The notes beneath the pieces were generated by a model. It was not told the DNA's origin, did no database searches, and saw nothing but the letters and a program-made list of their open reading frames with translations. A stretch of 64,000 bases of DNA from Candidatus Aceula meridiana (GTDB taxonomy: Bacteria > Omnitrophota > Gorgyraeia > Zapsychrales > Aceulaceae): positions 17,276 to 81,275 of the forward strand of contig JAVCDE010000026.1 of NCBI GenBank assembly GCA_030765185.1, read 5' to 3'. Made by a program: the position numbers and the translations under genes. Below are positions 48,289-61,017 of the stretch, piece after piece. Positions within the stretch are counted from its first letter, which is position 1; the number at the start of each line of letters is the position of its first letter.

Positions 48289-48822
48289 ATGAGTAATAAA
48301 TTAAAAGTAATATTAGGCTTGGGCCTGATTGCGGTGGCCTTTATTTGCATAATCGCGGTTTCTTTTTCAATTGACCGTAGAAATCAGTCTTCTGTCCAAG
48401 AAATTGATGTCCTTCAAGTAGAATTAGCTAATCTTATCGCTCAGCAAAGCGAAGACATCCTTTCTGATTCGGACAAAGAAAAAGTAGAGCGCGATCCTAT
48501 TCGCCTGGAAGATGTTTTGGCTCGTGCGCAGAGCATCTATGGCGAGGCAGAACTTGAGCGTAAGAATGGAATTCTTTGGATTGACCGCAAAAGCTCCCAA
48601 ATGATGGTTACTTTAGGGGTTGTCAACGGCCTGATGCCAGGAACTTATTTAGGTGTTTATCAAGAAAAGCTTCAAGCTGATGGCACGGTTATTAATGAAA
48701 AAGTCGATGATGTTGTTGTTGAAAAAGCGTATGACATCATCTCTTATGTTAAGTCCACAAAAAAAGCGCAAGATGATTTTAACCGCGATTATTACCGCGT
48801 TAGCATGAAGGGTTCTTTTTAG
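48289..48822 (+). CDS. single-pass membrane protein of unknown function upstream of gspE
   Basis: MSNKLKVILGLGLIAVAFICIIAVSF is an N-terminal TM anchor, followed by a ~150-aa periplasmic region. The track ORF starts at a TTG at 48214. I prefer the ATG at 48289, but the start is uncertain. Confidence 0.45.
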   Translation: MSNKLKVILGLGLIAVAFICIIAVSFSIDRRNQSSVQEIDVLQVELANLIAQQSEDILSDSDKEKVERDPIRLEDVLARAQSIYGEAELERKNGILWIDRKSSQMMVTLGVVNGLMPGTYLGVYQEKLQADGTVINEKVDDVVVEKAYDIISYVKSTKKAQDDFNRDYYRVSMKGSF

Positions 48823-48847
48823 CCCTTTTTTAAGTAACCTGCAAATT

Positions 48848-50542
48848 ATGCGAAACAGATCCCCTATAGGTCAACTTCTTGTCGACAAAAAGATTATCAC
48901 TCCTGAGCAGCTTAAGATTGCCCTCCATGAACAGAAAAAAACAAGAGAACTTTTAGGGATTACGCTTATCCGCCTTGGATTTGTTGATGAAGAAAAGATT
49001 TATCTTCCGATTCTCGCCGGAGAGCTTGGGGTTGATTTTCTTAATTTAAAAGATTTTGAGATTCCTTCTGAGGTTATTAATAAAATTCCTGCCAAAGTTG
49101 CTGACCACTACAAAGTTATCCCCGTTGATTACAGAGATGATGTTTTAACCATTGCTCTCACGAATCCTTTAGACATCCATACCTTAGATGATGTTTCTTT
49201 GGTTGCCGGGTCTAAAGTTAAATCTGTTTTAGCAGCTCAAAAAGATATTGCAGAGGCTATCCGTAAATATTATGGCTTAGGAGCAGACACGATCGAACAG
49301 ATGATGGATACGGTAACGGTCTTGCCGCAGTCCACAGAAAGAGTTGAAGATATTCAGGAGTTGGACTCAGAAGCTTCTATCGGAAAATTTATCAATCAGC
49401 TCCTTTTAGAGTCTTATCAAAACCGGGCTACAGATATTCACATCGAACCTTTTGAAAATGAACTCAAAGTTCGTTATCGTGTTGATGGCATTCTCTATGA
49501 TGCTAAGGTTCCTATTAATATTAAGCATTTTAAAGATTCTGTTAGCTCGCGTATTAAGATTATTTCTAATTTGGATATTGCCGAAAAACGCCTGCCGCAA
49601 GATGGACGTTTTAAGGTGCGTGTCGGCGATGTTGATTTGGATTTGCGCGTATCGTTTTTACCGACACCTTACGGGGAGAGTATTGTTATCCGTATCTTAA
49701 GCTCAACAAAATTATATAGCTTGGCAGAGCTAGGGCTTGCTAGTGAAGAAGAAAAGATTCTCGACGGGTTAATTAAAAGGCCGCATGGCATTCTTTTTCT
49801 AACGGGCCCTACTGGCAGTGGAAAAACAACAACGCTTTATTCTTGCCTTTCCCGCATTAATAAGGTTGATAAGAAAATTATTACCATTGAGGACCCAATT
49901 GAATATCAACTTAATGGTATTACGCAAATTCAAATTCATCCAGCGATTGGGTTAAATTTTGCTGTGGGCCTGCGTTCGATGTTAAGGCATGATCCTGATA
50001 TTATGATGGTTGGAGAAGTCCGCGACACGGAAACTGCAGAAATTACTATTCAGGTTGCTTTAACAGGGCATTTAGTTTTCTCTACGCTGCATACCAACGA
50101 TGCCGCTTCAGCCGTGGCACGTCTTTTAGACATGGGGGTTGAACCATATTTGGTCGCAAGTTCAGTTTTGTGTTTTATCGCGCAGCGTTTAGTGCGCGTG
50201 ATTTGCCCAAAGTGCAAAAAACCAGTCCATGTATCCGCGGAAATGTTTAAGGAAATGGGCATTGATCCGAAGGCGCTTGAGGGCGTGACGATTTATGAAG
50301 GCAAAGGGTGTGAGGATTGCAATCTTACCGGATATAAAGGACGCCAGGGTATTTATGAATTTTTACCCATTACCGAAGAGATTCGTAATCTTATTATTGA
50401 AAGAGCATCGGCTGCAAAAATTAAAGATAAAGCTGTTGAGCTCGGCATGCGAACTTTGCGCGAGAGAGGATGGGAGAAAGTAAAGAGAGGAATCACCACT
50501 CCGAGTGAGGTTATCCGCGTTACTCAGCAAGAAGAAATTTAA
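48848..50542 (+). CDS. gspE: type II secretion / type IV pilus assembly ATPase with MshEN-type N-terminal domain
   Basis: The N-terminus has two tandem 24-aa motifs (IGQLLVDKKIITPEQLKIALHEQ and LGITLIRLGFVDEEKIYLPILAGELG) resembling the MshEN c-di-GMP-binding motif. The Walker A is GPTGSGKTTT. Asp-box, His-box and a tetracysteine CPKC...CEDC are present. Confidence 0.85.
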   Translation: MRNRSPIGQLLVDKKIITPEQLKIALHEQKKTRELLGITLIRLGFVDEEKIYLPILAGELGVDFLNLKDFEIPSEVINKIPAKVADHYKVIPVDYRDDVLTIALTNPLDIHTLDDVSLVAGSKVKSVLAAQKDIAEAIRKYYGLGADTIEQMMDTVTVLPQSTERVEDIQELDSEASIGKFINQLLLESYQNRATDIHIEPFENELKVRYRVDGILYDAKVPINIKHFKDSVSSRIKIISNLDIAEKRLPQDGRFKVRVGDVDLDLRVSFLPTPYGESIVIRILSSTKLYSLAELGLASEEEKILDGLIKRPHGILFLTGPTGSGKTTTLYSCLSRINKVDKKIITIEDPIEYQLNGITQIQIHPAIGLNFAVGLRSMLRHDPDIMMVGEVRDTETAEITIQVALTGHLVFSTLHTNDAASAVARLLDMGVEPYLVASSVLCFIAQRLVRVICPKCKKPVHVSAEMFKEMGIDPKALEGVTIYEGKGCEDCNLTGYKGRQGIYEFLPITEEIRNLIIERASAAKIKDKAVELGMRTLRERGWEKVKRGITTPSEVIRVTQQEEI

Positions 50543-50564
50543 GAGTAAGAACCAACTGATGTAA

Positions 50565-50606
50565 AAGGGCCCTGCCAAGAAATACGGCTGGGCCCTTTTG
50601 TTTTGG
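50565..50606 (+). terminator. rho-independent terminator after gspE (first of two)
   Basis: aagggccc ... gggccctt stem followed by ttgttttgg. Confidence 0.55.
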
Positions 50607-50620
50607 TAGCGTTTCCTCCA

Positions 50621-50650
50621 ACAAGGCCACAGGGCCTTGTTTTTAGTTTT
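50621..50650 (+). terminator. second terminator hairpin after gspE
   Basis: acaaggcc acag ggccttgt is an 8-bp stem with a tetraloop, followed by ttttagtttt. Confidence 0.5.
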
Positions 50651-50685
50651 GTGGATGCTATCTTTGAGTTAAGGGGCACACGATA

Positions 50686-51042
50686 ATGAGAGAGATGACA
50701 ATTCAAAATTTAACTTCAAAAGATAAAACAAGAAATGAAGTTTTGTTTTGCGAAGCCTTTGAGAGAGAAGGAATACGGCGAGCTCTCGAGAGAAGAAATA
50801 CCTGCAAGATTATCAATGTTCTTGAATTTGAAGACCAGGCCCATGCTGAAGATTTTCTAAGCAGAGAATCAAAGAAATGCCCACCTCCTGAAACGCGCAT
50901 TGTTCATCTTTTTAACAGTGATTTAGCTAAAGATGAAGTCATTTACAAGATTTCTGGCAATCAATATGTTGTTTTAGGCAATCGCCTTTTTGCCTTAAAA
51001 GTTTCCCATTCCTTGAAAAAAATCGTTTCCATAGCAAAATAA
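50686..51042 (+). CDS. hypothetical small protein (118 aa)
   Basis: Open frame between the gspE terminators and gspF. No recognisable motif. Calling it coding is tentative. Confidence 0.35.
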   Translation: MREMTIQNLTSKDKTRNEVLFCEAFEREGIRRALERRNTCKIINVLEFEDQAHAEDFLSRESKKCPPPETRIVHLFNSDLAKDEVIYKISGNQYVVLGNRLFALKVSHSLKKIVSIAK

Positions 51043-51121
51043 TTCTTACATAATATTAATATTAATATTCTATATGCGTTATCTTGCAAAGCCTTTTTGG
51101 CTATGTTAGAATGATTTTGTT

Positions 51122-52348
51122 ATGGCGAAATTTTCTTTTAAGGCTAAAAAAGGCCCTCAGGAGTTTATTGAAGACGTCTTAGAGGCAGAGAGTTTAGATA
51201 GGGCTGTTGAGAAAATTACCGCCTTAGGATATGTTCCTATTGATGTTAGTCTCTATAGGCCAACTAAAATAAAGTCTTTTTCTAAAAAAAAGAAGGTTTT
51301 ATTTTTTTATAAAAAAGTTTCCCTATCTGAGCTTGTCATGCTAACTCGACAGCTTTATGATTTGCTTGATTCCGGCGTTCCCCTTCTTAAAGCCCTAAGA
51401 TTAACATTAGAGCAGGGGACAAATCCTCATCTTAAGAAAGTTCTTGCACAGATCTATAGTTCTGTTCAGGACGGTGGTTTGTTTTCTGATGCGCTCGCGC
51501 AGCACAGAGATGTCTTTTCTCCTCTCTATGTCAACATGGTTAAGGCTGGAGAAATCAGCGGAAAATTAGACGTTGTTTTAGAGCGCCTGGCAACATTTTT
51601 AGAAAAAGATTCAGAGGCGCGCGCAAAAATACAAAATAGTCTTATTTATCCATCGCTTATTTTAGGTGTAGGAATGCTGACCATTTTTGTTCTTCTTACT
51701 TTTGTTATTCCACGGCTGACTGAGATGTTTGAAGACTTGAGCGCGAATCTTCCGCTTCCGACTGTTATTTTGATAGCGGTGAGTGATTTTCTTTCTCGGT
51801 TTTGGTGGCTTTTAGCTATTTTAATCCTGGCAGCAGTTTTTTATTTTAAAAACTTTGCATCTTCTGAAAAAGGAACGCTGCAGGTTGACCGTTTAAAATT
51901 AAAGATTCCTGTCCTAGGAAATTTTATTCAATGTATTGAAATTGCACGTTTTTCAAGGACCTTAAGCACGCTTTTAGAAAGCGGGGTCGTGATTGTCTCA
52001 GGGCTGGAATCTGTCAGCGATCTTTTGGATAATGCGGTATTAAAAAAAGAGGCCCGCGAAATTGCGCGACAAGTAGCCGCTGGAGCAAGTTTAAGTGAGG
52101 CCTTAAAAGCGAGCACGTTTTTTCCAGCGGACGCCCAAAACATGATTAGCATCGGAGAAGAGGCGGGACGGCTTGAAGCGTCTCTTTTAAAACTCGCGGT
52201 TTCTTATGAAAAGAAATCTGACGCGTTAACCAAGACGCTAACATCAATGCTCGAGCCGCTTTTAATTGTTTTTATTGGCCTTGTCGTCGGGTTTGTGGTT
52301 ATTTCCATGCTGCTGCCAATTTTTCAGATGAATTTTATTGTTCAATAG
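51122..52348 (+). CDS. gspF: type II secretion / T4P inner-membrane platform protein
   Basis: Two GspF repeats, each with a cytoplasmic domain followed by TM segments, plus the conserved C-terminal LLEPLLIVFIGLVVGFVVISMLLPIF block. Confidence 0.8.
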   Translation: MAKFSFKAKKGPQEFIEDVLEAESLDRAVEKITALGYVPIDVSLYRPTKIKSFSKKKKVLFFYKKVSLSELVMLTRQLYDLLDSGVPLLKALRLTLEQGTNPHLKKVLAQIYSSVQDGGLFSDALAQHRDVFSPLYVNMVKAGEISGKLDVVLERLATFLEKDSEARAKIQNSLIYPSLILGVGMLTIFVLLTFVIPRLTEMFEDLSANLPLPTVILIAVSDFLSRFWWLLAILILAAVFYFKNFASSEKGTLQVDRLKLKIPVLGNFIQCIEIARFSRTLSTLLESGVVIVSGLESVSDLLDNAVLKKEAREIARQVAAGASLSEALKASTFFPADAQNMISIGEEAGRLEASLLKLAVSYEKKSDALTKTLTSMLEPLLIVFIGLVVGFVVISMLLPIFQMNFIVQ

Positions 52349-52360
52349 AAAGGAACTTTT

Positions 52361-52792
52361 ATGAAGAGACGAGGTGGATTTACTTTAATTGAAATTATGC
52401 TTGTTGTCATCATCTTAGGTATTCTCGTTGCTATGGTTGTTCCGAACTTAGCCGGGCGAGGACAGCAGGCCCGCGAGGCTGCCGCCCGCGCGGACATAGA
52501 AGCTAACCTTGCAACGTCTTTGGATTTGTATGAGATGGATAATGGGAAGTATCCTAGCACGGAGCAGGGGCTGAAGGCACTTTTAGTAGAGCCGTCAACA
52601 TCACCTGTTCCTCCAAATTGGAGCGGTCCGTATCTAAAGAAAAAGAGAATTCCTCTCGATCCATGGGGCGTGGAGTATGTTTACGTTTTTCCCGGCATTC
52701 AAAATATACAAGAATATGACCTATCTTCTCTAGGCCCAGACGGCATTGAAAGCGAAGACGATATTACAAATTGGGCAGAAATCGACATTTAA
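52361..52792 (+). CDS. gspG: major pseudopilin (type II secretion GspG)
   Basis: The prepilin leader is MKRRGG|FTLIEIMLVVIILGIL (G-1, F+1, E+5). The GspG-specific C-terminal motif is LDPWGVEYVY. Confidence 0.8.
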   Translation: MKRRGGFTLIEIMLVVIILGILVAMVVPNLAGRGQQAREAAARADIEANLATSLDLYEMDNGKYPSTEQGLKALLVEPSTSPVPPNWSGPYLKKKRIPLDPWGVEYVYVFPGIQNIQEYDLSSLGPDGIESEDDITNWAEIDI

Positions 52793-53267
52793 GTTGAAAA
52801 CAAGAAAGTTTTTTTTAGGAAATGCTTTTAGCCTTATTGAGCTTCTTTTAGTTGTCATTTTAATTGGAGTTCTCGCTGGGTTGTCCCTACCACGTTTTAG
52901 TCAAAGCTATTCTCAAATTCGCCTTGAACAAACTGCTTATAACCTAGCGTCGATGATGCGCTATGCCCAAGGACGCGCTCTTTCGCGCCAAGAAGAAATT
53001 CAGCTTCAGTTTGATTCTGATTTTACGCGATATCATCTTATGGAAAGAAAAGGTGATAATTTTGAAGTGATTGAAGGCCGCAGAGGACGGGCGCAGCTTA
53101 TTCCAAAGGGAATCTCAATTGAATCAGAAGAAACAACTGTGGGATTTTCTCCAGGGGGGGCAATGGATAAGGTAAGAATTTATCTGTCTAATGAAAAAGG
53201 GAAAATATTCACCGTTACCACGAGGGAGCTAAGAGGAAGTGTTAAAGTTTTTGATTCAGAAATTTAG
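52746..53267 (+). CDS. minor pseudopilin (GspH-like)
   Basis: The N-terminal hydrophobic pilin-like helix is GNAFSLIELLLVVILIGVLAGL. An alternative in-frame TTG start at 52794 would give a short leader directly after the gspG stop; the ORF-track start overlaps gspG by 47 nt. Confidence 0.55.
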   Translation: MKAKTILQIGQKSTFKLKTRKFFLGNAFSLIELLLVVILIGVLAGLSLPRFSQSYSQIRLEQTAYNLASMMRYAQGRALSRQEEIQLQFDSDFTRYHLMERKGDNFEVIEGRRGRAQLIPKGISIESEETTVGFSPGGAMDKVRIYLSNEKGKIFTVTTRELRGSVKVFDSEI

Positions 53268-53640
53268 CCGCAGAGGGTTTGTTCTTGTTGAAGTGCTGAT
53301 GACAGTGGCCATCCTATCTGTTGTCTTAACGATGATTATACGTTCGCACATGGCAAGTTTACGCGCTTCCACATACACGGAGGAATATTCAACGGCTGTA
53401 TTACTTTTAGAAAACAAGATGACGGAATTAATCCAAAAAGGGTTTATCCGAAGAGACCTTGAGGAACAAGAAGCTTTTGATTTTCCTTACGAAAAGTTTT
53501 CTTATTTGTTTCAATCGAAAAAAAGTGAAAACGCCGAAGATTCTGACAACTTAAATGAGGTCACATTGACTTTGTTTTGGCCATCAGGAAAAGGCGAGCG
53601 TAAAATTTTAGCAACAACATATTTATTTAATTCATTTTAA
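53239..53640 (+). CDS. minor pseudopilin (GspI-like)
   Basis: The prepilin leader ...RRG|FVLVEVLMTVAILSVVL has a canonical E+5. Size is ~120 aa. Confidence 0.55.
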   Translation: MLKFLIQKFSRRGFVLVEVLMTVAILSVVLTMIIRSHMASLRASTYTEEYSTAVLLLENKMTELIQKGFIRRDLEEQEAFDFPYEKFSYLFQSKKSENAEDSDNLNEVTLTLFWPSGKGERKILATTYLFNSF

Positions 53641-53643
53641 AAT

Positions 53644-54372
53644 ATGAAAATACAAAACTCTTTAAAAGAAAATCTTAAAGCCTTCACGCTTATTGAAATC
53701 CTTATTGCCTTAGGAATTTTTTCGGTGGTCATTTTAAGTCTTTATAGCAGTTTTTGGGCGGGAATGAAGATTAATAAGCGGGCACACCAAAATGATAATA
53801 TTTATCGCCAGATCGCCTTAGGACTAGAAGAGATGGCGCATGAGCTTGAGCAGGCGGCCTCATATGATTTTTCACAATCTCAAGAGGATGCCGGTGCTTT
53901 TTATGGGACAGCAGGAGAGATCTCTTTTTTGCTCCCGACGGCGGAGGGATTGAAGCATATTCGTTATTACCTAGAGGCTGAGGAGGAAACATCTATTCAT
54001 CGTATTATTGTCGGAGAAAGTTATCAAAAAAATGTTTCTTTTACCTTAACTAATCAATCTTCACCGAGCCGGTATGCTCTTATCCGTGAAGAAAATTCAT
54101 TTGTAGACGCCATGGGAGATTCTTTTTCTTCTGACCCAGAGGTGGTTACCTTAGGAATTGCTGAAGAGGGTCTTCAATTTTCTTATGCGTTTCTGAAGCA
54201 AGAGGGCGACGGGGTAGAGATTGTATGGAAAGATGTTTGGGATGAAAACTATATTCCCGCAGGGGTGAAGCTTAAAGTGTCTTTTTTAAACGCTGAGAAT
54301 AAAAACGGTTTTCAAGAAATTGAAAAAAATATTTATATCCCAACAGGCTTTTGGGGGGAAGATGAAGTTTAA
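53644..54372 (+). CDS. minor pseudopilin (GspJ-like)
   Basis: The leader ...NLKA|FTLIEILIALGIF has E+5 and A at -1. Size is ~240 aa. Confidence 0.5.
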   Translation: MKIQNSLKENLKAFTLIEILIALGIFSVVILSLYSSFWAGMKINKRAHQNDNIYRQIALGLEEMAHELEQAASYDFSQSQEDAGAFYGTAGEISFLLPTAEGLKHIRYYLEAEEETSIHRIIVGESYQKNVSFTLTNQSSPSRYALIREENSFVDAMGDSFSSDPEVVTLGIAEEGLQFSYAFLKQEGDGVEIVWKDVWDENYIPAGVKLKVSFLNAENKNGFQEIEKNIYIPTGFWGEDEV

Positions 54373-55459
54373 TATTCTGCGATTGAGACTTCAAGATAAT
54401 TCTGGCATAATAATGATAGTCACGTTGTGGATTTTAATTATTCTTAGCGTGCTAGCCGTGGGGTTAGGCAGGCGGACGAGCTTGGATTTAGCTCTAACCA
54501 AATATAGCATCGCGAGGGCAAAGGCAATGTCTTTGGCATGGGGTGCTTTAACCTATAGTATGAATGAAATCCGCAAGGATTCAGAAGATGACGATGCGGA
54601 AAAATTTGACAGCTTTTATCAATGCGGTTTTTATCTTCCTGAAGAAAGTTCTGCCGAGGAGATTTTTGAGAATAGACCTTTAGGAGATGGGTTTTTTGAT
54701 GTGAGGTATAAAATAGAGCAGGGGAAAGGCGCAGATCGTATTTGTTATGGGTTTGAGGATGAAGAGAGACGATTAAACCTTAATTCGATTTATTCTGGAA
54801 ATTATAAAGTTCTTTACCACTTGATTGTTCTTTTAGGATTTGATGAGGCAACAGCTTTGACGATTTCGTGTTCGGTTGTTGATTGGCATGATGACGACAG
54901 CATTGTTACCGAGGCACCTCATGGGGCTGAAGATGATTATTATGTGGCATTAATTAAGCCTTATCGTTGCAAGAATACAACGTTTGAAACTATCGAAGAG
55001 CTTTTACTTGTTAAGGGCGTCACAAAAGAAATTTTCGATTCTCTTAAGGACTACGTGACAGTTTTTCCTTTAGAGGCGAGGGATTTAAAAGTAAATATTA
55101 ATACCGTCAAAGAGGATATTTTAAAGGCCATTTTTCGGGCAACAGCCGAAAGAAATCCCGGCGCCGAGGAGCTTGACGCTGATTCACTCACTCAAAAGAT
55201 TGTATCTTATCGATTAGGAGAAGATGCAATGGCCTGCACAGCTGATGACCGAATTATCGAAAAGGCCAATAGCGAGCCACTTAGCTTAAATCAGAGTGAG
55301 CAAGCGATTTTTCTTTCTGCCGTAAATCATTTTATTGAAAGCGCGCAGTATTTCCGCATTACGGTGCATGGGTACGATGAACCTTCAGGGGTTAAGGCGC
55401 AGATACAAGCTGTTGTTGACCGTGAAGACTTAACCATTTTACGCTGGCGCAGGAACTAA
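54362..55459 (+). CDS. minor pseudopilin GspK-like (no Glu+5)
   Basis: MKFNILRLRLQDNSG|IIMIVTLWILIILSVLAV is a pilin-like TM lacking E+5, as in GspK. The size is large (~365 aa). The ATG at 54362 overlaps the gspJ end by 11 nt and is preferred over the track start at 54320. Confidence 0.5.
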   Translation: MKFNILRLRLQDNSGIIMIVTLWILIILSVLAVGLGRRTSLDLALTKYSIARAKAMSLAWGALTYSMNEIRKDSEDDDAEKFDSFYQCGFYLPEESSAEEIFENRPLGDGFFDVRYKIEQGKGADRICYGFEDEERRLNLNSIYSGNYKVLYHLIVLLGFDEATALTISCSVVDWHDDDSIVTEAPHGAEDDYYVALIKPYRCKNTTFETIEELLLVKGVTKEIFDSLKDYVTVFPLEARDLKVNINTVKEDILKAIFRATAERNPGAEELDADSLTQKIVSYRLGEDAMACTADDRIIEKANSEPLSLNQSEQAIFLSAVNHFIESAQYFRITVHGYDEPSGVKAQIQAVVDREDLTILRWRRN

Positions 55460-55470: not shown

Positions 55471-56895
55471 ATGAAAAAACACCTGACAACTATTATCGAA
55501 ATTACCGAAACACACGTTAAGTTTCTTGAGGCTGCTCTGTCGCGCAGAAAGCCGGTACTGTTACGGTCGTCTGTCGCGAAAATTACAGAGCCTTCCGAAC
55601 AAGGGATTTCTAAGCTTTTGACAACCATGGCTGACCCTCGCATGAAAAAAACTTATGTTGTGGCTGTTGTTCCTCGCAGGCAGGTCATGGTAAGGTATTT
55701 TTCTTTTCCGTCCCACTCAGAAGAAGAAATTAAAAAAATGATTTCTCTACAGGTTGTCCAGCAAGTGCCTTATGCGCGCGAAGACATTGTTTTTGATTAT
55801 ACAATTTTAGATAAGGACTCATCAGGCTATGCAAAAGTTTTAGCCGCTATTGCGCACAAAGAAGTGATCAGCCGGTATTTTAAAGTATTCGCAAAAGCCG
55901 GCCTCACTATCAACAGTATTGTTTTAAGTTCTATCGCAGTTGTCAATTGGCTTTCTAGTTACGAAAAGAAAGAAAAGACATCTCATGGCGTTTCTATTTT
56001 AAATATCGACACATCGACGAGCGAGATTTGTTTTTGCAAAAAGGGAAGGCTTCTTTTCTCACGCCATATTGGGTTTGGTGTAAAAGATTTAGGTGCTGAT
56101 CAAGAAGACGCTTTTGTTAGAGAAGTCGGGATGACGCTCGAGTCATATCAAAAAGAAAAGATTGGGCCGCTTCCTCAAAAGATTATCCTGCTGGCCCCGC
56201 CAGAGGCTATTGTTGGATTCTCGCAGAAAATTCAATCTGAGCTGCAGCTTAATGCAGAATTTATTGATCCGTATCAATATTTTATTGAAGCAAAAGAGAT
56301 TGCTATTCCTATCATTTCAAAAGGGGATTATTATTCTTTGGTTGTTCCGTCAGGGCTGGCTGTTAAAGGTGGACAGAAGAATTTTAATCTTTTGCCAAAA
56401 GTTGTCAGTGACCAGAGGAAGGCAAAAGCAAAAAAAAGCGCTTGGATAAAATTTTTACTGCTTGCTAGTTTAATTATTCTATTCGGCAGCGGGATTTTAT
56501 TAACAAAAGTGCAGCAGGAGAAAAATCGTTTTGATAACATTAAAGAGAAGCTAGCTGAACTTAAGCCCCGCATTGAGGAAATTAAGCGCAAAAAAGAACA
56601 CATCGAAGCTATCGAGAAATATTTGAATGTAAAGCCTTTGTCCGTGGACATTATTTATGAGTTGTATAATTTAACGCCCAAAGATGCTTCGTTTCGTCTT
56701 ATCTATGTTGACCCACAAGACAATGTAACTTTGCAGGGAATTGCAGAAAAATTATCAAGCGTTAACGGATTTCAGAGTCGTTTGGTAAATTCGTCATTAT
56801 TTACAAATGTTAATTTGCAGTATGCGACTCAGCGAAAGATTTTTCAGGGAGAGATAACAGACTTTAAAATAACGGCAGAAATCGTAAGGCCTTAA
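55471..56895 (+). CDS. GspL-like (PilM-type actin-like cytoplasmic domain + TM + PilN-like periplasmic region)
   Basis: The N-terminal ~330 aa form a PilM/FtsA-like fold. A single TM follows (WIKFLLLASLIILFGSGILL), then a coiled-coil periplasmic segment. Confidence 0.5.
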   Translation: MKKHLTTIIEITETHVKFLEAALSRRKPVLLRSSVAKITEPSEQGISKLLTTMADPRMKKTYVVAVVPRRQVMVRYFSFPSHSEEEIKKMISLQVVQQVPYAREDIVFDYTILDKDSSGYAKVLAAIAHKEVISRYFKVFAKAGLTINSIVLSSIAVVNWLSSYEKKEKTSHGVSILNIDTSTSEICFCKKGRLLFSRHIGFGVKDLGADQEDAFVREVGMTLESYQKEKIGPLPQKIILLAPPEAIVGFSQKIQSELQLNAEFIDPYQYFIEAKEIAIPIISKGDYYSLVVPSGLAVKGGQKNFNLLPKVVSDQRKAKAKKSAWIKFLLLASLIILFGSGILLTKVQQEKNRFDNIKEKLAELKPRIEEIKRKKEHIEAIEKYLNVKPLSVDIIYELYNLTPKDASFRLIYVDPQDNVTLQGIAEKLSSVNGFQSRLVNSSLFTNVNLQYATQRKIFQGEITDFKITAEIVRP

Positions 56896-56915
56896 TAAAA
56901 TAAAGGAACAAGGGC

Positions 56916-57452
56916 ATGGCCCAATTTAATCCTAGCCAAAGAGAAAAGTGGATTTTTATTTCTTGTATTCTGATGATTTGTATTTACATCGGATACCGTT
57001 TTGTTTTTATTGCGATGCAAGAGGAAGAGACATTCTGGAAGGCAAAAGTTTTAACTGCCCAACGAAAAGCAAGGAAGGACTTAAGCGTTCTTCGCGAAGA
57101 GTTCTCCGTTAATGCACGCTATGGTGAATATCTAAAAAGGCTAAAGCAAAAAACTCCAGATACTCAAGAGATGGCCTCGATTTTATCAGAGATCGAGTCT
57201 ATCGCCGGCAACATCAACTTAAAAATTGAAGATATGAAGCCGAAAAAGATTAAAAAACAAGATTTTTATAATCATTTTTCAGTTAACATCCGCATCAAAG
57301 GGGACATGGGAACTATCACAAAGTTTCTTTATGCCCTTCAAGCCAAGCCTCATTTTTTTCATATCAATGAAATGCGTCTTGAAAAACGTTCAGCCCGGAC
57401 TCAAGAAATTAAATGCGAGATTGTGGCAAGCCGCTTGCTGATCCAGCAATAG
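56916..57452 (+). CDS. GspM/PilO-like bitopic inner-membrane protein
   Basis: Short cytoplasmic N-terminus, TM helix WIFISCILMICIYIGYRFVFIA and a ~140-aa periplasmic domain. Position after the gspL-like gene supports the call. Confidence 0.45.
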   Translation: MAQFNPSQREKWIFISCILMICIYIGYRFVFIAMQEEETFWKAKVLTAQRKARKDLSVLREEFSVNARYGEYLKRLKQKTPDTQEMASILSEIESIAGNINLKIEDMKPKKIKKQDFYNHFSVNIRIKGDMGTITKFLYALQAKPHFFHINEMRLEKRSARTQEIKCEIVASRLLIQQ

Positions 57453-57640: not shown

Positions 57641-57646
57641 AAGTCT

Positions 57647-57871
57647 ATGAAGCATATATATTTAATAAAAGATTTAGCCCTTGAAACAGGGTATTCGACC
57701 CATACTTTAAAGTATTACCTCAAGGAAGGACTTTTTGAGGAAATGGGGCGTAGCCCGTCGACTAATTTTCGATATTTCGACGAAGGGGCAATCATGTGTT
57801 TGCAGAAAATCCGCAAGATGAAAAACCGCGGGCTTTCTTTAAGCGAAATAAAGGAAAGATTGAAGAATTAA
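57647..57871 (+). CDS. MerR-family HTH transcriptional regulator (small, 74 aa)
   Basis: MKHIYLIKDLALETGYSTHTLKYYLKEGL matches the MerR N-terminal HTH (M..ytIgelA..tGvs..TLRyYE..GL). The stop TAA overlaps the next gene's ATG (TAATG). Confidence 0.6.
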   Translation: MKHIYLIKDLALETGYSTHTLKYYLKEGLFEEMGRSPSTNFRYFDEGAIMCLQKIRKMKNRGLSLSEIKERLKN

Positions 57872-58707
57872 TGAGTTATTACCAAGCTTTACGTCTTAAA
57901 AAAGAACCTTTCTCGACGTCTCCGGATCCGGAGTTCTTTTATCATTCTAGAGAACATACAACCGCGTTAAAACGGCTAGAAATTGCTGTGCGCCTAAAGC
58001 GGGGCTTAAGCCTTATCTTAGGCGATGTTGGCGCAGGAAAAACAACCTTGTCGCGTGCCTTGTTGCAAAGTTTTGCCGGTGAAGAAAAAGATTTTATTTT
58101 TCACATGATCCTTGATCCGGATTTTAAAAGCGAATATCAATTTTTGTCGCATCTTACAAAGATGTTTGGAGTTTCGCCGTTTATGCGCTCGGCTATGGAT
58201 CATCGCGAGGCCATTGAAAAATATCTTTTTCAAAAAGGTGTTGAAGAGGGAAAGACAATTATTTTATTAGTCGACGAGGGACAAAAGCTTTCTATGCCGT
58301 TTATCGAAATTTTGCGAACGCTTTTAAATTATGAAACGAATGAATATAAATTACTCCAGCTGGTTATTTTAGGGCAGATGGAACTTTTACCTCGCATTAA
58401 GAAGGTGAAGAATTTTATGGATCGCGTTGCCTTAAAGTATATTATTAATCCCTTAGACGAGAGAGAAACCGAGAAAATGATTGATTTTCGTCTTCATCAG
58501 GCTGGCTTAAACGGCAACAGCCCGTTGTTTAGTCATGAGGCGATTCGAAGAATTTATGAAATTACACAAGGGTATCCACGTCAGATTACGCTTTGTTGCC
58601 ATAACGCACTTGAACGTTTGGTAATGGATGGGCGGGAAACTATTACAGTGGAACTTATTGATTCGTTAGTTGCAGAAGAGCAAAGGTGGCTTGAACATGT
58701 CGCATGA
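57871..58707 (+). CDS. gspA: ExeA/GspA-family AAA ATPase (general secretion pathway protein A)
   Basis: GLSLILGDVGAGKTTLSRAL is the Walker A. DEGQKL is Walker B-like. Size is ~280 aa. Start chosen at the ATG at 57871 (TAATG coupling with the upstream gene) rather than the track's 57796. Confidence 0.65.
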   Translation: MSYYQALRLKKEPFSTSPDPEFFYHSREHTTALKRLEIAVRLKRGLSLILGDVGAGKTTLSRALLQSFAGEEKDFIFHMILDPDFKSEYQFLSHLTKMFGVSPFMRSAMDHREAIEKYLFQKGVEEGKTIILLVDEGQKLSMPFIEILRTLLNYETNEYKLLQLVILGQMELLPRIKKVKNFMDRVALKYIINPLDERETEKMIDFRLHQAGLNGNSPLFSHEAIRRIYEITQGYPRQITLCCHNALERLVMDGRETITVELIDSLVAEEQRWLEHVA

Positions 58708-59287
58708 GGATTTACCCGAAGACAAATTATTAAATCTTATCCGAAATGGAAAGGCGAAAGATTCTTCGGAGAAAAAGGGACTAAGCCCTTCTTCCGTTGG
58801 GCCAAAGCCTTTAAGGCCGGTGCAAGAAAAAAAAGCAAGGAACTTCTTGGGCCCCATCAATAGACTCATGCTTATTGTTGTAGCGGGATTGTTAGGGTAT
58901 CTTTGTTATGAATTGTTTTATGAAAGCAAGGCTGAAGAAAGCATTCTCGAAACCGCTGCATCTCAGCCGGCTCAACCTGTTACTGTTATTGCCTTAGAGG
59001 AAAAACCTCTTTCTTATTATGAGAATCAAATTAAAAAGCGTGATATTTTTGAAAGGCCTAAGCAAGGTGTCGTCGCAACGGCCGCAGACAACGCGCTTTC
59101 AAAGAATTTTAGGCTTGTCGGAATTGTTTTAGGCGAAACCCCGGAGGCTATTGTTGAGGATGTCCTTGGAAAAAGGACATTATTTTTGCACGTTGGCGAC
59201 AAGGTTGAAGAAGCAGAAATTATTCTTATCGAAGAGGGAAAAGTTACATTCTTTTATCAAGAAGAAGAATTTGAGTTAACGCAATAA
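58697..59287 (+). CDS. bitopic membrane protein, GspB/ExeB-like partner candidate
   Basis: Single TM (LMLIVVAGLLGYLCYELFY) after an ~65-aa cytoplasmic N-terminus, then a periplasmic region. AGGTGG lies 8 nt upstream of the ATG at 58697. Overlaps gspA by 11 nt. Assignment is by position only. Confidence 0.4.
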   Translation: MSHEDLPEDKLLNLIRNGKAKDSSEKKGLSPSSVGPKPLRPVQEKKARNFLGPINRLMLIVVAGLLGYLCYELFYESKAEESILETAASQPAQPVTVIALEEKPLSYYENQIKKRDIFERPKQGVVATAADNALSKNFRLVGIVLGETPEAIVEDVLGKRTLFLHVGDKVEEAEIILIEEGKVTFFYQEEEFELTQ

Positions 59288-59310
59288 TTGAAAAAATATA
59301 GGAGATTTTT

Positions 59311-61017
59311 ATGAAAAAAATATTAATGTTGTGCTTTATTGTTGGTTTGGGCATTTTTTGGTGTAGTGCCGGAGGAGCCCAGACTTCGGGACAAACGTCC
59401 TCAGTTGATAATGCTTTGGATTTGTTTGATCAAGATGAGCAGGCAATCATAAAAGAGGCTTTAGGCGAGCCTGTGGCTGCCCCTGAGCCTATTGTCGAGC
59501 CTGTCGCTATGTCTGTTAGCGAGCCGGCTGCAGAAAAAGAACTGGTTGCCACCAAGCAACAAAGAACAGGTCCTATTTCAAAAGAGCAACAAGGGACAGC
59601 ATCTTCTTCCGTGAGGGAGGTCGGCGGAAGGCTCGTACTTGATGTTTTAGAGCTTAAAGATATGGATATTGTTGATGTTCTAAAGCTTATTTCAAAAAAA
59701 AGTGGGCTTAATATTGTTGCGGGTGCCAATGTCCGCGGGAAAGTAACGATTTATTTAAAGAATGTTGATGTTCGTGATGCGTTAAGAATTATTCTTGAGG
59801 CCAATGGCCTAGCCTTTGTTGAGGAGAATGACATTATTAAGGTTTTGACCGGAAATGATTTTGAAACGCGTTACGGTTATCAATTTGGACGTCAGACAGA
59901 AACGCGCATTGTTCAGCTTAAAAATGCCTCTGCGGCTGATTTGGTAGCAGCATTAAATCAGATGAAGAATTCGACAGGCTCTGTTGTCGCTGATGCGAAT
60001 TCTAATACCGTCATCATGACCGACCAAATTGATAAAATTATTATGATGGAGAATTTTGCGCACCATGCTGACATTCCCATAGCCTCGGAAATTTTTACCC
60101 TTAAATACTCTAAGGCGGAAGAGGTGGCAAAGAAAATTGAAGGGACTTTGACAAAAGGCATTAGTCAGATTGAATGGGATGAGCGATCGAATAAAATTAT
60201 CGTAACTGATACATCTGAGAAAATTAAAGAAATTTCCAAACTTGTTGAGGCTTTTGACGAAAAGCAGTCACAAGTTTTGATAGAAGCTAAGATCATCCAA
60301 GTTGTTTTAAGTGATACATTCAAGTTTGGAGTAGACTGGGAAGCTATTGTCCGTGATTATCACACGCTTACTTTAAATTCGGCTTTTAATGTTATATCAG
60401 ATACGGACAAAAGCGGAACGCTAAGCATTGGTACGATCGATGACGATGATTATGATGTTTTGATTGAAGCTCTTGAGACTGTTGGAGACACGAACACACT
60501 TTCGAGTCCTCGTATTCTTGCCATTAATAATGAAGAGGCAAAAATTTTAGTTGGGTCTAACGAGCCATATATCACCAGTGAAACCATCACAACAGCATCA
60601 GGGCCGGCAACAACATCAGAGAGTGTTAATTTTATTGATGTGGGTGTTAAATTGTATGTGACTCCAAAGATTCACGGAGATGGATACGTGACGTTGAAGA
60701 TTAAACCTGAGGTAAGTTCAGTTACGCGTTACCTCACAACAAGTACTAACAATGAGATTCCGATTGTGGATACGTCACAGGCAGAGACCACGGTTACCAT
60801 TAAAGATGGGGTAACAATTGTTTTAGGCGGCTTGATTAAAGATGAAGATATCGATAATGTTAACAAGGTGCCCCTTTTGGGCGATATTCCTTTTTTGGGC
60901 GCTGTTTTTCGTAATAAGAGCCAGACGACCCGTAAAACAGAGTTGGTTATTTTCTTAACGTGTCATATCGTTGGCGGGGATGTTGACGTTGAGCCAAAAA
61001 CAACCTTTATCGAATAA
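59311..61017 (+). CDS. gspD: secretin (GspD/PilQ family outer-membrane channel)
   Basis: Signal peptide. N-terminal N0-like domain (LVLDVLELKDMDIVDVLKLISKKSGLNIVAG...VRDALRIILEANGL). C-terminal secretin domain (VPLLGDIPFLGAVFRNKSQTTRKTELVIFLTCHIV). Confidence 0.85.
   Translation: MKKILMLCFIVGLGIFWCSAGGAQTSGQTSSVDNALDLFDQDEQAIIKEALGEPVAAPEPIVEPVAMSVSEPAAEKELVATKQQRTGPISKEQQGTASSSVREVGGRLVLDVLELKDMDIVDVLKLISKKSGLNIVAGANVRGKVTIYLKNVDVRDALRIILEANGLAFVEENDIIKVLTGNDFETRYGYQFGRQTETRIVQLKNASAADLVAALNQMKNSTGSVVADANSNTVIMTDQIDKIIMMENFAHHADIPIASEIFTLKYSKAEEVAKKIEGTLTKGISQIEWDERSNKIIVTDTSEKIKEISKLVEAFDEKQSQVLIEAKIIQVVLSDTFKFGVDWEAIVRDYHTLTLNSAFNVISDTDKSGTLSIGTIDDDDYDVLIEALETVGDTNTLSSPRILAINNEEAKILVGSNEPYITSETITTASGPATTSESVNFIDVGVKLYVTPKIHGDGYVTLKIKPEVSSVTRYLTTSTNNEIPIVDTSQAETTVTIKDGVTIVLGGLIKDEDIDNVNKVPLLGDIPFLGAVFRNKSQTTRKTELVIFLTCHIVGGDVDVEPKTTFIE

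What the first reader, a model, noticed from the sequence alone, without database searches (positions are those of the whole stretch)
48289..61017. Near-complete T2SS-like gene set (E,F,G,H,I,J,K,L,M,A,B-like,D) in one locus, including ExeA/GspA
The following are contiguous on one strand:
- the major pseudopilin with its GspG-specific LDPWG..YVY motif
- four minor pseudopilins, including a Glu5-less GspK-like one
- a GspL-like PilM+TM fusion
- GspM-like, GspA (ExeA AAA ATPase) and a bitopic partner
- a secretin

GspA/ExeA is otherwise mostly reported from Vibrio and Aeromonas. A prepilin peptidase (gspO/pilD) and gspC are not evident in the window.
Basis: partly seen in the sequence, partly recalled or inferred. 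Interest (0 to 1): 0.5.

Follow-up and report, generated by a model that had tools for sequence, protein, structure and literature searches.

The report
Omnitrophota type II secretion-like gene cluster
This is a real 16-gene cluster for a type II secretion-like machine in an uncultured Antarctic-lake bacterium (Candidatus Aceula meridiana, phylum Omnitrophota); it is conserved in the same order in about three quarters of the related genomes that could be checked, and it is an atypical variant of a known machine rather than a new kind of system.

Summary
Window 48289-61017 (+) holds a contiguous type-IV-filament cluster. GspG passes its NCBIfam equivalog cut-off. H, I, J and K each match their E. 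coli Gsp cognates, in canonical order, and K lacks Glu5. The E-F-G-H-I-J-K-L-M order is collinear with E. coli gsp.

- "GspL/M" score as a PilM-PilN fusion and PilO, not as T2SS L/M.
- "GspA" is a true ExeA AAA-domain homologue (34% identity, E=4e-38 to Aeromonas ExeA). It is only 278 aa and has no transmembrane, C39-like or peptidoglycan-binding part.
- Its bitopic partner carries a GspC/PilP-type HR domain, so a GspC equivalent is present.
- Two genes were missed: a MerR-like ORF overlapping the ATPase start by 1 nt, and a conserved 118-aa ORF.
- ExeA-like ATPases are not rare. At least 511 species representatives, nearly all Omnitrophota, carry this one.

Of 33 related loci with enough flank, 24 keep the core set in order.

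No prepilin peptidase or PilT lies in the window. MacSyFinder could not be run, and a surface-pilus function is not excluded.

Verdict: a new variant of a known kind, of moderate to low interest.

The parts
48289..48822 (+). 177-aa bitopic protein (N-terminal TM helix), first gene of the cluster, function unknown
   Evidence: No Pfam, NCBIfam or PDB match. Homologues at 53-58% identity lie directly upstream of gspE, but only in Aceula-like relatives. A promoter-like site lies at 48253-48282. Single-sequence AF2 was unusable (pLDDT 44).
48848..50542 (+). GspE/PilB-family assembly ATPase with an N-terminal MshEN c-di-GMP-binding domain
   Evidence: Pfam T2SSE 429 bits and MshEN 69 bits. TIGR02533 GspE 602 bits (cut-off 630) against PilB 595 (cut-off 676). 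NF053729 c-di-GMP motif 59 bits, above its cut-off of 38. 45% identity to E. coli GspE. hhalign score 721 for GspE against 596 for HofB. PDB: M. xanthus PilB 511 bits, EpsE 390 bits.
50686..51042 (+). 118-aa cytoplasmic ORF of unknown function in an enlarged E-F spacer; a terminator-like hairpin lies at 50620-50641 just upstream
   Evidence: No family hit. Homologues occupy the same E-F gap in L013 and L043. Hairpin reported.
51122..52348 (+). GspF-type inner-membrane platform protein
   Evidence: Pfam T2SSF 210 bits over two stretches. TIGR02120 GspF 376 bits (cut-off 424), above all PilC/HofC models. hhalign score 427 for GspF against 272 for HofC.
52361..52792 (+). Major pseudopilin GspG
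   Evidence: TIGR01710 148.7 bits, above its cut-off of 88.85. Pfam T2SSG 107 bits. 47% identity to E. coli GspG over 139 aa. hhalign covers the full length of GspG but only the N-terminal helix of the T4 pilin PpdD. Signal peptide RRGG|FTLIE.
52794..53267 (+). GspH-like minor pseudopilin (class-III signal GNA|FSLIE, Ala at -1)
   Evidence: Family profile against E. coli GspH: probability 93.6%, 124 columns. Weak GspH and ComGD profile hits. Start refined.
53239..53640 (+). GspI-like minor pseudopilin (RRG|FVLVE)
   Evidence: Family profile against E. coli GspI: probability 89.9%, 104 of 125 residues. Other pilins align only at the N-terminal helix.
53644..54372 (+). GspJ-like minor pseudopilin (LKA|FTLIE)
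   Evidence: Family profile against E. coli GspJ: probability 96.9%, E=1.3e-10, 130 columns.
54362..55459 (+). GspK-like tip pseudopilin without Glu5
   Evidence: Pfam T2SSK_1st 71 bits, above its cut-off of 26. NF037980 106 bits (cut-off 130). Family profile against E. coli GspK: probability 98.9%, 281 columns, with no match to the E. coli T4P minor pilins. SG|[IV]I[LM]IV without Glu5 is conserved across relatives.
55471..56895 (+). PilM (actin-like) - TM - PilN fusion; same architecture as GspL and MshI
   Evidence: Pfam PilM_2 56.6 bits and PilN 36.2 bits, both above their cut-offs; T2SSL 17.5 bits, below 25.5. PDB PilM hits. hhalign against E. coli GspL only 3% probability. Sources name relatives PilM/PilN or PulL.
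56916..57452 (+). PilO/GspM-like bitopic partner of the fusion protein
   Evidence: Pfam PilO 51.4 bits (cut-off 22) and T2SSM_b 27 bits (cut-off 21.7); T2SSM 18.5 bits, below 27.8.
57647..57871 (+). 74-aa MerR-type HTH protein whose stop codon overlaps the ATPase start by 1 nt (TAATG)
   Evidence: Pfam MerR_1 56 bits. Overlap shown. Present upstream of the ATPase in 44 of 54 related loci.
57871..58707 (+). ExeA/GspA/MshM-type AAA+ ATPase, cytoplasmic module only (278 aa)
   Evidence: 34% identity over 254 aa, E=4e-38, to the AAA domain of Aeromonas caviae ExeA. hhalign 99.9%. TIGR03015 176 bits, below its cut-off of 324. It has none of the TM, GspA_C39-like or PG_binding_1 domains that Aeromonas ExeA has. 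Relatives in Omnitrophota are 60-94% identical.
58697..59287 (+). 196-aa bitopic protein: conserved cytoplasmic N-terminal peptide, TM helix, C-terminal GspC/PilP-type HR domain (GspB/GspC equivalent)
   Evidence: Family members hit Pfam T2SSB (9 of 11, best E 3.8e-4) and T2SSC (4 of 11, best E 1.4e-5). The only relevant PDB profile hit is the GspC HR domain 3oss_C, E=0.005; the one other listed hit had E=7.9. AF2 C-terminal domain has pLDDT about 90. Top Foldseek hits are GspC HR 3oss_C (TM 0.76), LspC, PilP and PulC HR. Present in 52 of 54 related loci.
59311..61017 (+). Outer-membrane secretin (signal peptide, N0, two Secretin_N stretches, secretin core; no AMIN domain)
   Evidence: Pfam Secretin 174 bits, Secretin_N 91 bits, type_II_gspD_N0 35 bits. 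GspD 276 bits (cut-off 351), PilQ 263 (cut-off 284), MshL 201 (cut-off 250). hhalign score 289 for GspD against 257 for HofQ.
25018..29163 (+). 1,381-aa signal-peptide protein; tentative cargo or filament-associated protein (association only)
   Evidence: No Pfam or PDB match. One N-terminal hydrophobic segment. Homologues (phmmer E=1.6e-119 for the best) are encoded inside the cluster between PilO and MerR/AAA in L003, L009 and L011.

Best explanation
The cluster encodes a type II secretion-type member of the type IV filament superfamily. It is vertically conserved in Omnitrophota and sits among housekeeping genes.

Inferred mechanism:
1. A c-di-GMP-responsive GspE-like hexamer docks on the inner-membrane platform. 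The platform is GspF plus a PilM-PilN fusion that stands in for GspL, plus a PilO/GspM-like partner.
2. The ATPase drives polymerisation of a short GspG pseudopilus. The pseudopilus is primed by an H-I-J-K tip complex, and the bulky Glu5-less GspK caps it.
3. A bitopic protein with a GspC/PilP-type HR domain couples the platform to the N0 ring of the secretin.
4. Sec-exported proteins are then pushed through the secretin.
5. A short ExeA/MshM-type AAA+ ATPase is probably tethered through the conserved cytoplasmic N-terminal peptide of the HR protein. Together with a co-translated MerR-like protein, it is inferred to assist or regulate secretin assembly or engagement.

What is shown: gene content, homology, order, signal-peptide features, the HR fold and conservation across related loci. 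What is inferred: secretion rather than a surface pilus, c-di-GMP control, the AAA-HR-secretin relay, and the cargo.
For: - GspG is above its equivalog cut-off.
- H, I, J and K family profiles match their E. coli Gsp cognates over the globular domains, in canonical order (probabilities 90-99%). They match E. coli T4P minor pilins only at the N-terminal helix, or not at all.
- K has the T2SS-specific T2SSK_1st domain and no Glu5.
- In head-to-head hhalign scores, E, F, G and D all favour Gsp over Hof/Ppd. In NCBIfam, GspF is well above PilC, while GspE is only 8 bits above PilB and GspD only 13 bits above PilQ.
- The cluster is a single locus collinear with E. coli gspE-M. Abby et al. report that most T2SS are single-locus and 99% of T4P are multi-locus.
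- The partner protein has an HR domain.
- The AAA is homologous to ExeA.
- The c-di-GMP motif is above its cut-off.
- No PilT-like ATPase is in the window.
- The order is conserved: 24 of 33 loci hold the full core. The HR protein is present in 52 of 54 loci and the secretin in 53 of 54.
- No F1-type ATPase lies within 10 kb in any of 80 loci. The 'T4aP/F-ATPase' loci of Seymour et al. are therefore probably a different cluster.
- Secreted hydrolases are predicted for all Ace Lake Omnitrophota.
- Signal-peptide proteins are embedded between PilO and MerR/AAA in relatives.
Against: - Only GspG passes an NCBIfam equivalog cut-off. E, F, K and D fall just below theirs.
- L and M score as PilM/PilN/PilO and not as T2SS L/M.
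- Full-length PilB structures outscore EpsE (511 against 390 bits).
- There is no PDZ or coiled-coil part of GspC, no pilotin, and no prepilin peptidase in the window or within 10 kb in 87 loci.
- An MshM-like ATPase, an MshI-like fusion and an MshEN ATPase are hallmarks of MSHA pili.
- A TXSScan-based survey reports T4aP, not T2SS, in Omnitrophota.
- There is no experimental evidence for secretion.
Confidence: 0.6

Rival explanations
1. The cluster builds a surface pilus of T4aP/MSHA type. The pilus would serve attachment to host or prey cells, using a GspG-like major pilin. The large signal-peptide proteins associated with the cluster would act as PilY1/PilC-like tip adhesins.
For: - PilM, PilN and PilO are the best-scoring profiles.
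- The ATPase aligns end to end with PilB and carries an MshEN domain.
- MshM-like AAA and MshI-like fusion are typical of MSHA pili.
- The HR domain also resembles PilP.
- Seymour et al., using TXSScan, report T4aP in nearly all Omnitrophota and no T2SS.
- Large proteins of the 1,381-aa family sit inside the cluster in L003, L009 and L011.
- In T4P, PilY1 is docked in trans on PilK.
- The phylum has an epibiotic or predatory lifestyle.
Against: - The major subunit is a GspG equivalog of 143 aa.
- K has the T2SS alpha-domain, and H, I and J match their Gsp cognates.
- The organisation is single-locus and collinear with gsp.
- The secretin has no AMIN domains.
- No PilT is in the window.
- No MshN-like TPR gene and no MshA-type pilin set was found.
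- No F-type ATPase neighbour was found, unlike the published T4aP loci.
- The conserved C-terminal motif of the large proteins is not at the extreme C-terminus.
Confidence: 0.27
2. The cluster is a DNA-uptake (competence) pseudopilus machine related to ComG/HofQ systems.
For: H, I and J give weak ComGD, ComGE and ComGF hits, and K gives a ComEA-type helix-hairpin-helix hit (25.8 bits). The secretin also hits HofQ.
Against: All Com hits are below their cut-offs and mostly confined to the shared N-terminal helix. The Gsp cognates align over the globular domains. The HHH hit lies inside the T2SSK_1st region (residues 214-247 of 151-250). No ComEC or ComEA gene is in the window.
Confidence: 0.05
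3. The cluster is a decaying or incomplete remnant. It lacks a prepilin peptidase, a full GspC and a pilotin, and so has no function.
For: No Peptidase_A24/GspO-like ORF in the window or nearby in relatives. Most components are below equivalog cut-offs.
Against: All ORFs are intact, with coupled or overlapping starts. The same order is kept across related loci, and the AAA orthologue is found in at least 511 species. Catalytic Walker motifs and class-III signals are conserved. TXSScan models treat prepilin peptidases as loners that can be encoded elsewhere.
Confidence: 0.03

Closest known systems
Classical Gsp/Pul/Eps type II secretion system (E. coli gspC-O, Klebsiella Pul, Vibrio Eps)
   Same: Collinear E-F-G-H-I-J-K-(L)-(M) order in one locus. 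GspG equivalog. Cognate H, I and J. Glu5-less GspK with the T2SSK domain. GspF is the best platform match. Secretin with an N0 domain. An HR-domain protein that would contact N0.
   Different: L and M are recognised only by PilM/PilN/PilO profiles. The GspC equivalent has an HR domain only, with no PDZ or coiled coil, and sits after the ATPase rather than before D. C and D lie at the 3' end in this genome. The ATPase has an MshEN c-di-GMP domain. No gspO, gspN or pilotin is in the locus. There are extra MerR-like, 118-aa and 177-aa genes.
Aeromonas ExeA-ExeB secretin-assembly pair (GspA/GspB)
   Same: The AAA+ domain is 34% identical to Aeromonas caviae ExeA (E=4e-38). It is followed immediately by a bitopic protein whose C-terminal domain weakly matches Pfam T2SSB in 9 of 11 family members. 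Both lie next to the secretin gene.
   Different: ExeA is 571 aa with TM, C39-like and PG_binding_1 domains. This protein is 278 aa and wholly cytoplasmic, so it cannot bind peptidoglycan itself. E. coli GspA is not detectably similar beyond the P-loop. The partner resembles the GspC HR domain more than ExeB (hhalign against ExeB E=0.2). A MerR-like gene is coupled upstream.
MSHA (mannose-sensitive haemagglutinin) type IV pilus system of Vibrio
   Same: It combines a GspL/PilN-like fusion (MshI), a PilO-like MshJ, an ExeA-like AAA-only ATPase (MshM) and a c-di-GMP-binding MshEN ATPase (MshE) with a secretin.
   Different: The filament subunits here are of GspG-H-I-J-K type, not MshB/A/C/D/O/P/Q. 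The MshL model scores lowest of the three secretin models (201 bits against 276 and 263). No MshN TPR gene is present. Gene order follows gsp, not msh.
Type IVa pilus PilMNOPQ alignment subcomplex
   Same: PilM, PilN and PilO domains pass Pfam thresholds. The HR domain superposes on PilP. A secretin lies downstream.
   Different: PilM and PilN are fused. The secretin has no AMIN domain. The major subunit is not a T4a pilin. No PilT was found. The system is a single locus rather than dispersed loci.
'T2SS-like' and 'T4aP' loci reported in Omnitrophota (West-Roberts et al. 2023 preprint; Seymour et al. 2023)
   Same: Same phylum. The window also carries an Archaeovorin-type giant gene and a PilZ gene, as described there.
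   Different: The published giant-gene-adjacent locus contains rcpC and a Rotamase_2 PPIase and lies upstream of the giant gene. The published T4aP loci neighbour F-type ATPases. This cluster lies 24 kb downstream of the giant gene among housekeeping genes. No F1-type ATPase was found within 10 kb in 80 loci.

Membership tests
Type II secretion system (Gsp) | Major pseudopilin GspG | tested here: met
   TIGR01710 148.7 bits, above its cut-off of 88.85. 47% identity to E. coli GspG. Full-length hhalign match.
Type II secretion system (Gsp) | Minor pseudopilins GspH, I, J and K, with K lacking Glu5 and carrying the alpha-domain | tested here: met
   hhalign probabilities 93.6, 89.9, 96.9 and 98.9% to the E. 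coli cognates, in gene order. T2SSK_1st 71 bits, above 26. No Glu5 in K across relatives. NCBIfam equivalog scores for H-K are below their cut-offs.
Type II secretion system (Gsp) | GspE ATPase and GspF platform of T2SS type | tested here: inconclusive
   GspE 602 bits (cut-off 630) against PilB 595 (cut-off 676). GspF 376 bits (cut-off 424), best of the platform models. PDB PilB 511 bits against EpsE 390. hhalign favours GspE and GspF over HofB and HofC.
Type II secretion system (Gsp) | GspL and GspM assembly-platform proteins | tested here: not met
   T2SSL 17.5 bits (cut-off 25.5) and T2SSM 18.5 bits (cut-off 27.8). hhalign to E. coli GspL 3% and GspM 14%. The architecture (actin-like domain, TM, ferredoxin-like domain, plus a bitopic partner) is equivalent. 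T2SSM_b at 27 bits just passes its cut-off of 21.7.
Type II secretion system (Gsp) | GspC (HR domain contacting secretin N0, plus PDZ or coiled coil) | tested here: inconclusive
   An HR-type domain is present. No PDZ or coiled-coil domain was found. The window protein itself has no Pfam hit. hhalign to E. coli GspC is weak (E=0.069) but falls on the HR region.
Type II secretion system (Gsp) | Secretin GspD with an N0 domain | tested here: inconclusive
   Pfam Secretin, Secretin_N and GspD N0 all pass. GspD equivalog 276 bits (cut-off 351); PilQ 263 bits (cut-off 284).
Type II secretion system (Gsp) | Single locus with gsp gene order | tested here: met
   E through M are contiguous and collinear with E. 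coli gspE-M. The order is conserved in relatives.
Type II secretion system (Gsp) | Prepilin peptidase GspO/PilD in the genome | not testable with these tools
   None in the 64-kb window or within 10 kb in 87 loci.
Type II secretion system (Gsp) | Classification as T2SS by MacSyFinder/TXSScan, and secretion of folded periplasmic proteins | not testable with these tools
   The TXSScan profiles are not available here. There are no experimental data.
ExeA/GspA | AAA+ domain homologous to ExeA | tested here: met
   BLASTP 34% identity over 254 aa, E=4e-38, to Aeromonas caviae ExeA. hhalign 99.9%. Walker A GDVGAGKT and Walker B-type DEGQ motifs are conserved.
ExeA/GspA | TM helix plus periplasmic C39-like and peptidoglycan-binding domains | tested here: not met
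   The protein is 278 aa with only AAA-type Pfam hits. Aeromonas ExeA has GspA_C39-like and PG_binding_1 domains.
ExeA/GspA | Adjacent ExeB/GspB partner (T2SSB domain) | tested here: inconclusive
   9 of 11 family members weakly hit T2SSB, best E 3.8e-4. Profile against Aeromonas ExeB gives E=0.2.
Type IVa pilus | PilM, PilN, PilO and PilP alignment proteins | tested here: met
   PilM_2, PilN and PilO pass Pfam cut-offs. The HR domain superposes on PilP. PilM and PilN are fused, which is not the T4aP norm.
Type IVa pilus | T4a major pilin, PilT retraction ATPase, PilQ with AMIN domains, dispersed loci | tested here: not met
   The major subunit is GspG. No second ATPase is in the window. No AMIN hit. 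The system is a single locus. PilT elsewhere in the genome cannot be excluded.
MSHA pilus | MshM-type AAA and MshEN-type ATPase (mshM is mandatory in the TXSScan MSH model) | tested here: met
   ExeA/MshM-type AAA. MshEN 69 bits and c-di-GMP motif 59 bits, above 38. Model definition.
MSHA pilus | MshA-type pilin set, MshL secretin, MshN TPR protein | tested here: not met
   The filament subunits are of G-K type. MshL 201 bits (cut-off 250) is the lowest of the three secretin models. No TPR gene is in the cluster.

The most novel reading that the evidence does not exclude
The cluster is a T2SS-derived hybrid machine specific to Omnitrophota. It would export or display very large proteins (the 1,381-2,500-aa family, whose genes sit inside the cluster in some species and directly after the giant 'Archaeovorin' gene here). 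It would thereby link the phylum's giant-gene biology to a dedicated filament machine used in prey or host attack. The AAA-only ExeA, the MerR-like protein and the HR protein would form a new secretin-gating relay under c-di-GMP control.
Probability: 0.12. Interest if true: 0.65.

Novelty: new variant of a known kind. Interest (0 to 1): 0.33.

Why it matters
Omnitrophota are uncultured, ultra-small and probably predatory or epibiotic bacteria. How they export hydrolases and giant surface proteins is unknown. Published surveys mention Tad pili, T4aP and loosely 'T2SS-like' genes.

This work shows that a full T2SS-type cluster with a fixed, atypical architecture is widely conserved in the phylum. 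That architecture is a PilM-PilN fusion in place of GspL, an HR-only GspC/B, and an AAA-only ExeA coupled to a MerR-like protein. The ExeA-type ATPase orthologue occurs in at least 511 species representatives.

It gives a defined candidate export route and candidate cargo to test. It also shows that proteobacteria-trained models can mislabel such systems. In itself it is an extension of a known machine, not a new principle.

Tried and rejected
- A genome-contig scan with the single PilM-PilN protein found no relatives. A second scan with an alignment of the ATPase succeeded.
- Exact-sequence look-ups of the window's secretin and of P0001 found no contig, so the rest of the genome (pilD, pilT) could not be inspected.
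- The E. coli K-12 GspA/GspB pair was useless as a reference for ExeA. Only the P-loop aligns, E=0.14. I replaced it with Aeromonas caviae ExeA/ExeB, taken from a chromosome mislabelled as a plasmid.
- The 177-aa first gene gave no Pfam, NCBIfam or PDB match, even as a profile. Single-sequence AF2 was unusable at pLDDT 44.
- The 1,381-aa protein and its 2,492-aa relative gave no Pfam or PDB hits.
- The idea that the adjacent Amidase_3 lipoprotein substitutes for the missing PG-binding domain of ExeA was rejected as a general feature. The amidase follows the secretin in only 8 of 54 loci.
- The idea that this locus is the 'T4aP next to F-type ATPase' locus of Seymour et al. was rejected provisionally. 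No F1-type Walker motif occurs in any flanking ORF of 80 loci. This is a regex test and could miss divergent ATPases. Their Table S8 is truncated in the held supplement.
- A PilY1-like trans beta-strand role for the large proteins could not be supported. The conserved C-terminal motif is followed by 15-40 variable residues.

Full report
**Source and context**

The window comes from Candidatus Aceula meridiana. The PilM-PilN protein is 100% identical to an NCBI entry of that name. The organism is an Omnitrophota MAG from Ace Lake, Antarctica. GC content is even at 0.35-0.42 and nearly all genes lie on the + strand.

The cluster sits between housekeeping genes. Upstream are bioF/H/C/A, mnmA and pgi. 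Downstream are an amidase, murI, queD and queC. Relatives have the same neighbours, so this is not a mobile island.

**Checking the observation**

Profile searches gave the following:

| Gene | Result |
|---|---|
| ATPase | Pfam T2SSE 429 bits, plus MshEN |
| Platform | T2SSF |
| GspG | TIGR01710 148.7 bits, cut-off 88.85 |
| H, I, J | N_methyl class-III signal peptides |
| K | Pfam T2SSK_1st 71 bits, cut-off 26 |
| L-like | PilM_2 + PilN fusion |
| M-like | PilO / T2SSM_b |
| A-like | AAA_22 ATPase |
| Partner | bitopic protein with no family hit |
| Secretin | N0 + Secretin_N + Secretin |

- GspG is the only component above an NCBIfam equivalog cut-off. E (602 against 630), F (376 against 424), K (106 against 130) and D (276 against 351) fall just short.
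- Starts were refined to 52794 (H), 54362 (K), 57871 (AAA) and 58697 (HR protein).
- The class-III signals are [G/A]|F[TS]L[IV]E in G, H, I and J, and SG|[IV]I[LM]IV without Glu5 in K. Both patterns are conserved across relatives.

**T2SS or pilus?**

I fetched the E. coli K-12 gsp locus and its T4P-like hof/ppd genes as references from one organism. I then compared profiles built from the Omnitrophota families against them.

| Component | hhalign score, Gsp | hhalign score, Hof/Ppd |
|---|---|---|
| E | 721 (GspE) | 596 (HofB) |
| F | 427 (GspF) | 272 (HofC) |
| G | 240, full length (GspG) | 67, N-terminal helix only (PpdD) |
| D | 289 (GspD) | 257 (HofQ) |

- H, I, J and K match GspH, I, J and K over their globular domains (probabilities 93.6, 89.9, 96.9 and 98.9%). 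They match the T4P minor pilins only at the shared helix, or not at all.
- The order E-F-G-H-I-J-K-L-M is collinear with gspE-M.
- Abby et al. found that most T2SS are in a single locus and 99% of T4P are multi-locus.
- No PilT-like ATPase is in the window, and the secretin has no AMIN domain.

Evidence pointing the other way:
- The L and M positions are filled by proteins that only PilM/PilN/PilO profiles recognise. T2SSL and T2SSM are below their cut-offs, and hhalign to GspL and GspM gives 3% and 14%.
- Full-length PilB structures outscore EpsE (511 against 390 bits).
- The AAA-only ATPase, the fused PilM-PilN and the MshEN domain are the signature of MSHA pili.
- Seymour et al. ran TXSScan on Omnitrophota and report T4aP in nearly all genomes, with no mention of T2SS.

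Their T4aP loci often neighbour F-type ATPases. I found no F1-type Walker motif in any ORF within 10 kb of 80 related loci. Theirs is therefore probably a different cluster, but I could not confirm this because the relevant supplementary table is truncated. MacSyFinder itself could not be run.

**The 'GspA' and its partner**

A chromosome of Aeromonas caviae, mislabelled as a plasmid in the collection, supplied a bona fide exeA-exeB pair. ExeA is 571 aa with AAA_22, GspA_C39-like and PG_binding_1 domains. ExeB is 227 aa with a T2SSB domain.

- The window ATPase is 34% identical to the ExeA AAA domain over 254 residues (E=4e-38; hhalign 99.9%). It is a true homologue.
- It is only 278 aa and lacks everything after the AAA domain. 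In that respect it is like MshM rather than ExeA.
- It is far from rare. More than 5,785 database homologues were scored. At least 511 GTDB species representatives, nearly all Omnitrophota, encode an orthologue; the 80 best kept are 60-84% identical. The PilM-PilN protein is only 31-49% identical across most of the comparable relatives.

The 196-aa protein that follows has three parts: a conserved N-terminal cytoplasmic peptide, one TM helix and a conserved C-terminal domain.
- Family members weakly hit Pfam T2SSB (9 of 11) and T2SSC (4 of 11).
- The family profile's only relevant PDB match is the GspC HR domain in the GspC-GspD complex 3oss (E=0.005). The one other listed hit had E=7.9.
- The AlphaFold model has a confident C-terminal beta-domain with pLDDT about 90.
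- Its best structural neighbours are GspC HR (TM 0.76, rmsd 2.1), LspC, PilP and PulC HR.

A GspC/PilP-type connector to the secretin is therefore present, without a PDZ domain.

**Conservation**

A phmmer census of 80 loci retrieved with the ATPase shows the order E-F-G-H-I-J-K-PilMN-PilO-(MerR)-AAA-HR-secretin almost everywhere.

- 24 of 33 loci with enough flank hold E, F, G, K, L, M, A, C and D together.
- Among 54 loci with enough downstream sequence, the HR protein is present in 52, the secretin in 53 and MerR in 44. The amidase is present in only 8, so it is a neighbour rather than a component.
- In some lineages E (and F) follow D, as in classical gspC-D-E.
- The PilO|MerR junction is a hot spot for insertions. 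These include several signal-peptide proteins.

**Possible cargo**

It has one N-terminal hydrophobic segment consistent with a signal peptide, and no Pfam or PDB match. Its homologues sit inside the cluster at the PilO|MerR junction in L003 (2,492 aa; phmmer E=1.6e-119), L009 and L011. In this window it lies directly after the giant ORF. This is association only.

**Mechanism**

The most likely reading, at about 0.6, is a T2SS-type machine.
1. A c-di-GMP-responsive ATPase drives the system. The c-di-GMP motif scores 59 bits against a cut-off of 38.
2. The ATPase sits on a GspF/PilMN/PilO platform.
3. The platform assembles a GspG pseudopilus primed by H-I-J-K.
4. The HR protein links the platform to secretin N0.
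5. The AAA ATPase and the MerR-like protein assist or regulate that link.

Only gene content, homology, the HR fold and conservation are shown. Function is inferred. The main rival, at about 0.27, is an adhesive T4aP/MSHA-like pilus. A competence machine and a dead remnant are both unlikely.

**Novelty**

T2SS outside Proteobacteria are known. Databases already label these proteins 'general secretion pathway protein A', 'ExeA family' or 'PulL'. Preprints mention T2SS-like genes near giant genes in this phylum.

What I did not find described in the papers I could search is the fixed architecture across the phylum: the PilMN fusion, the HR-only connector, and the AAA-only ExeA with its MerR-like partner. 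I rate it a new variant of a known kind, of moderate to low interest.

Noticed in passing
window 1-24531 (+): A giant ORF with no stop codon from base 1, so it is truncated by the window edge and is at least 8,177 aa. Pfam shows a mosaic in one frame: NUDIX, LigT, GNAT, TPR, two CrcB (fluoride channel) stretches, sigma-70 regions 2 and 4, and a weak RelA_SpoT hit. About 13 hydrophobic segments are present. NUDIX, GNAT and TPR fit the published 'Archaeovorin' type. The terms CrcB and sigma do not occur in that preprint.
   Followed up: partly
window 25018-29163 (+); L003:12239-19717; L009:3-6653; L011:3-374: A 1,381-aa signal-peptide protein lies directly after the giant ORF. Its homologues are encoded inside the secretion cluster, between PilO and MerR/AAA, in three related genomes. 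They share an N-terminal domain of about 300 aa and a C-terminal motif (GGIDxxxxNxxV...PxIINIxPxTN). No known domain was found.
   Followed up: partly
window 57647-57871 (+): A 74-aa MerR-type HTH protein with no effector domain. Its stop codon overlaps the start of the ExeA-like ATPase (TAATG). It is conserved in 44 of 54 related loci. I did not find this pairing described for ExeA or MshM.
   Followed up: partly
window 50543-51121 (+): The E-F spacer is 580 nt here, against 85-130 nt in L001 and L003. It holds a terminator-like hairpin (50620-50641) and a 118-aa ORF with homologues in the same position in L013 and L043.
   Followed up: partly
window 57871-58707 and loci L008-L087: The AAA ATPase is 60-94% identical across Omnitrophota, while the structural PilM-PilN protein is only 31-49% identical across most of the comparable relatives. 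That is unusually strong constraint for an accessory factor.
   Followed up: no
L003, L009, L015, L027, L028, L060 (between PilO and MerR/AAA): This junction is a recurrent insertion hot spot of 2-7.8 kb. It carries large or signal-peptide proteins, and in L015 membrane and TPR proteins.
   Followed up: partly
window 52794-52830, 53644-53700; relatives: Many prepilin-type signals in this lineage have Ala (occasionally Ser) instead of the usual Gly at position -1. In some species this includes the major pseudopilin.
   Followed up: no
window 38034-39119 (+): A PilZ-domain protein (135 aa) is followed by a family-2 glycosyltransferase, about 13.5 kb downstream of the giant ORF. PilZ genes downstream of giant genes were reported by West-Roberts et al..
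   Followed up: no
window 61018-62055 (+): An Amidase_3 (AmiC-like) lipoprotein with a Cu_amine_oxidN1-like N-terminal domain lies directly after the secretin and is followed by murI. It occupies this position in only 8 of 54 related loci.
   Followed up: yes
L008, L012, L013, L025, L026, L050 and others: Many GTDB records titled 'uncultured Planctomycetales/Planctomycetia', one 'candidate division TA06' and one 'Nitrospirota' MAG carry this Omnitrophota-type ATPase at 65-84% identity with the same synteny. These are probably mislabelled or mis-binned contigs.
   Followed up: no
L088 (NZ_AP026896.1, 4.94 Mb): A record in the plasmid collection labelled 'plasmid pKAM479_3' of Aeromonas caviae is chromosome-sized and carries exeA-exeB. 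It has almost no annotation there.
   Followed up: no
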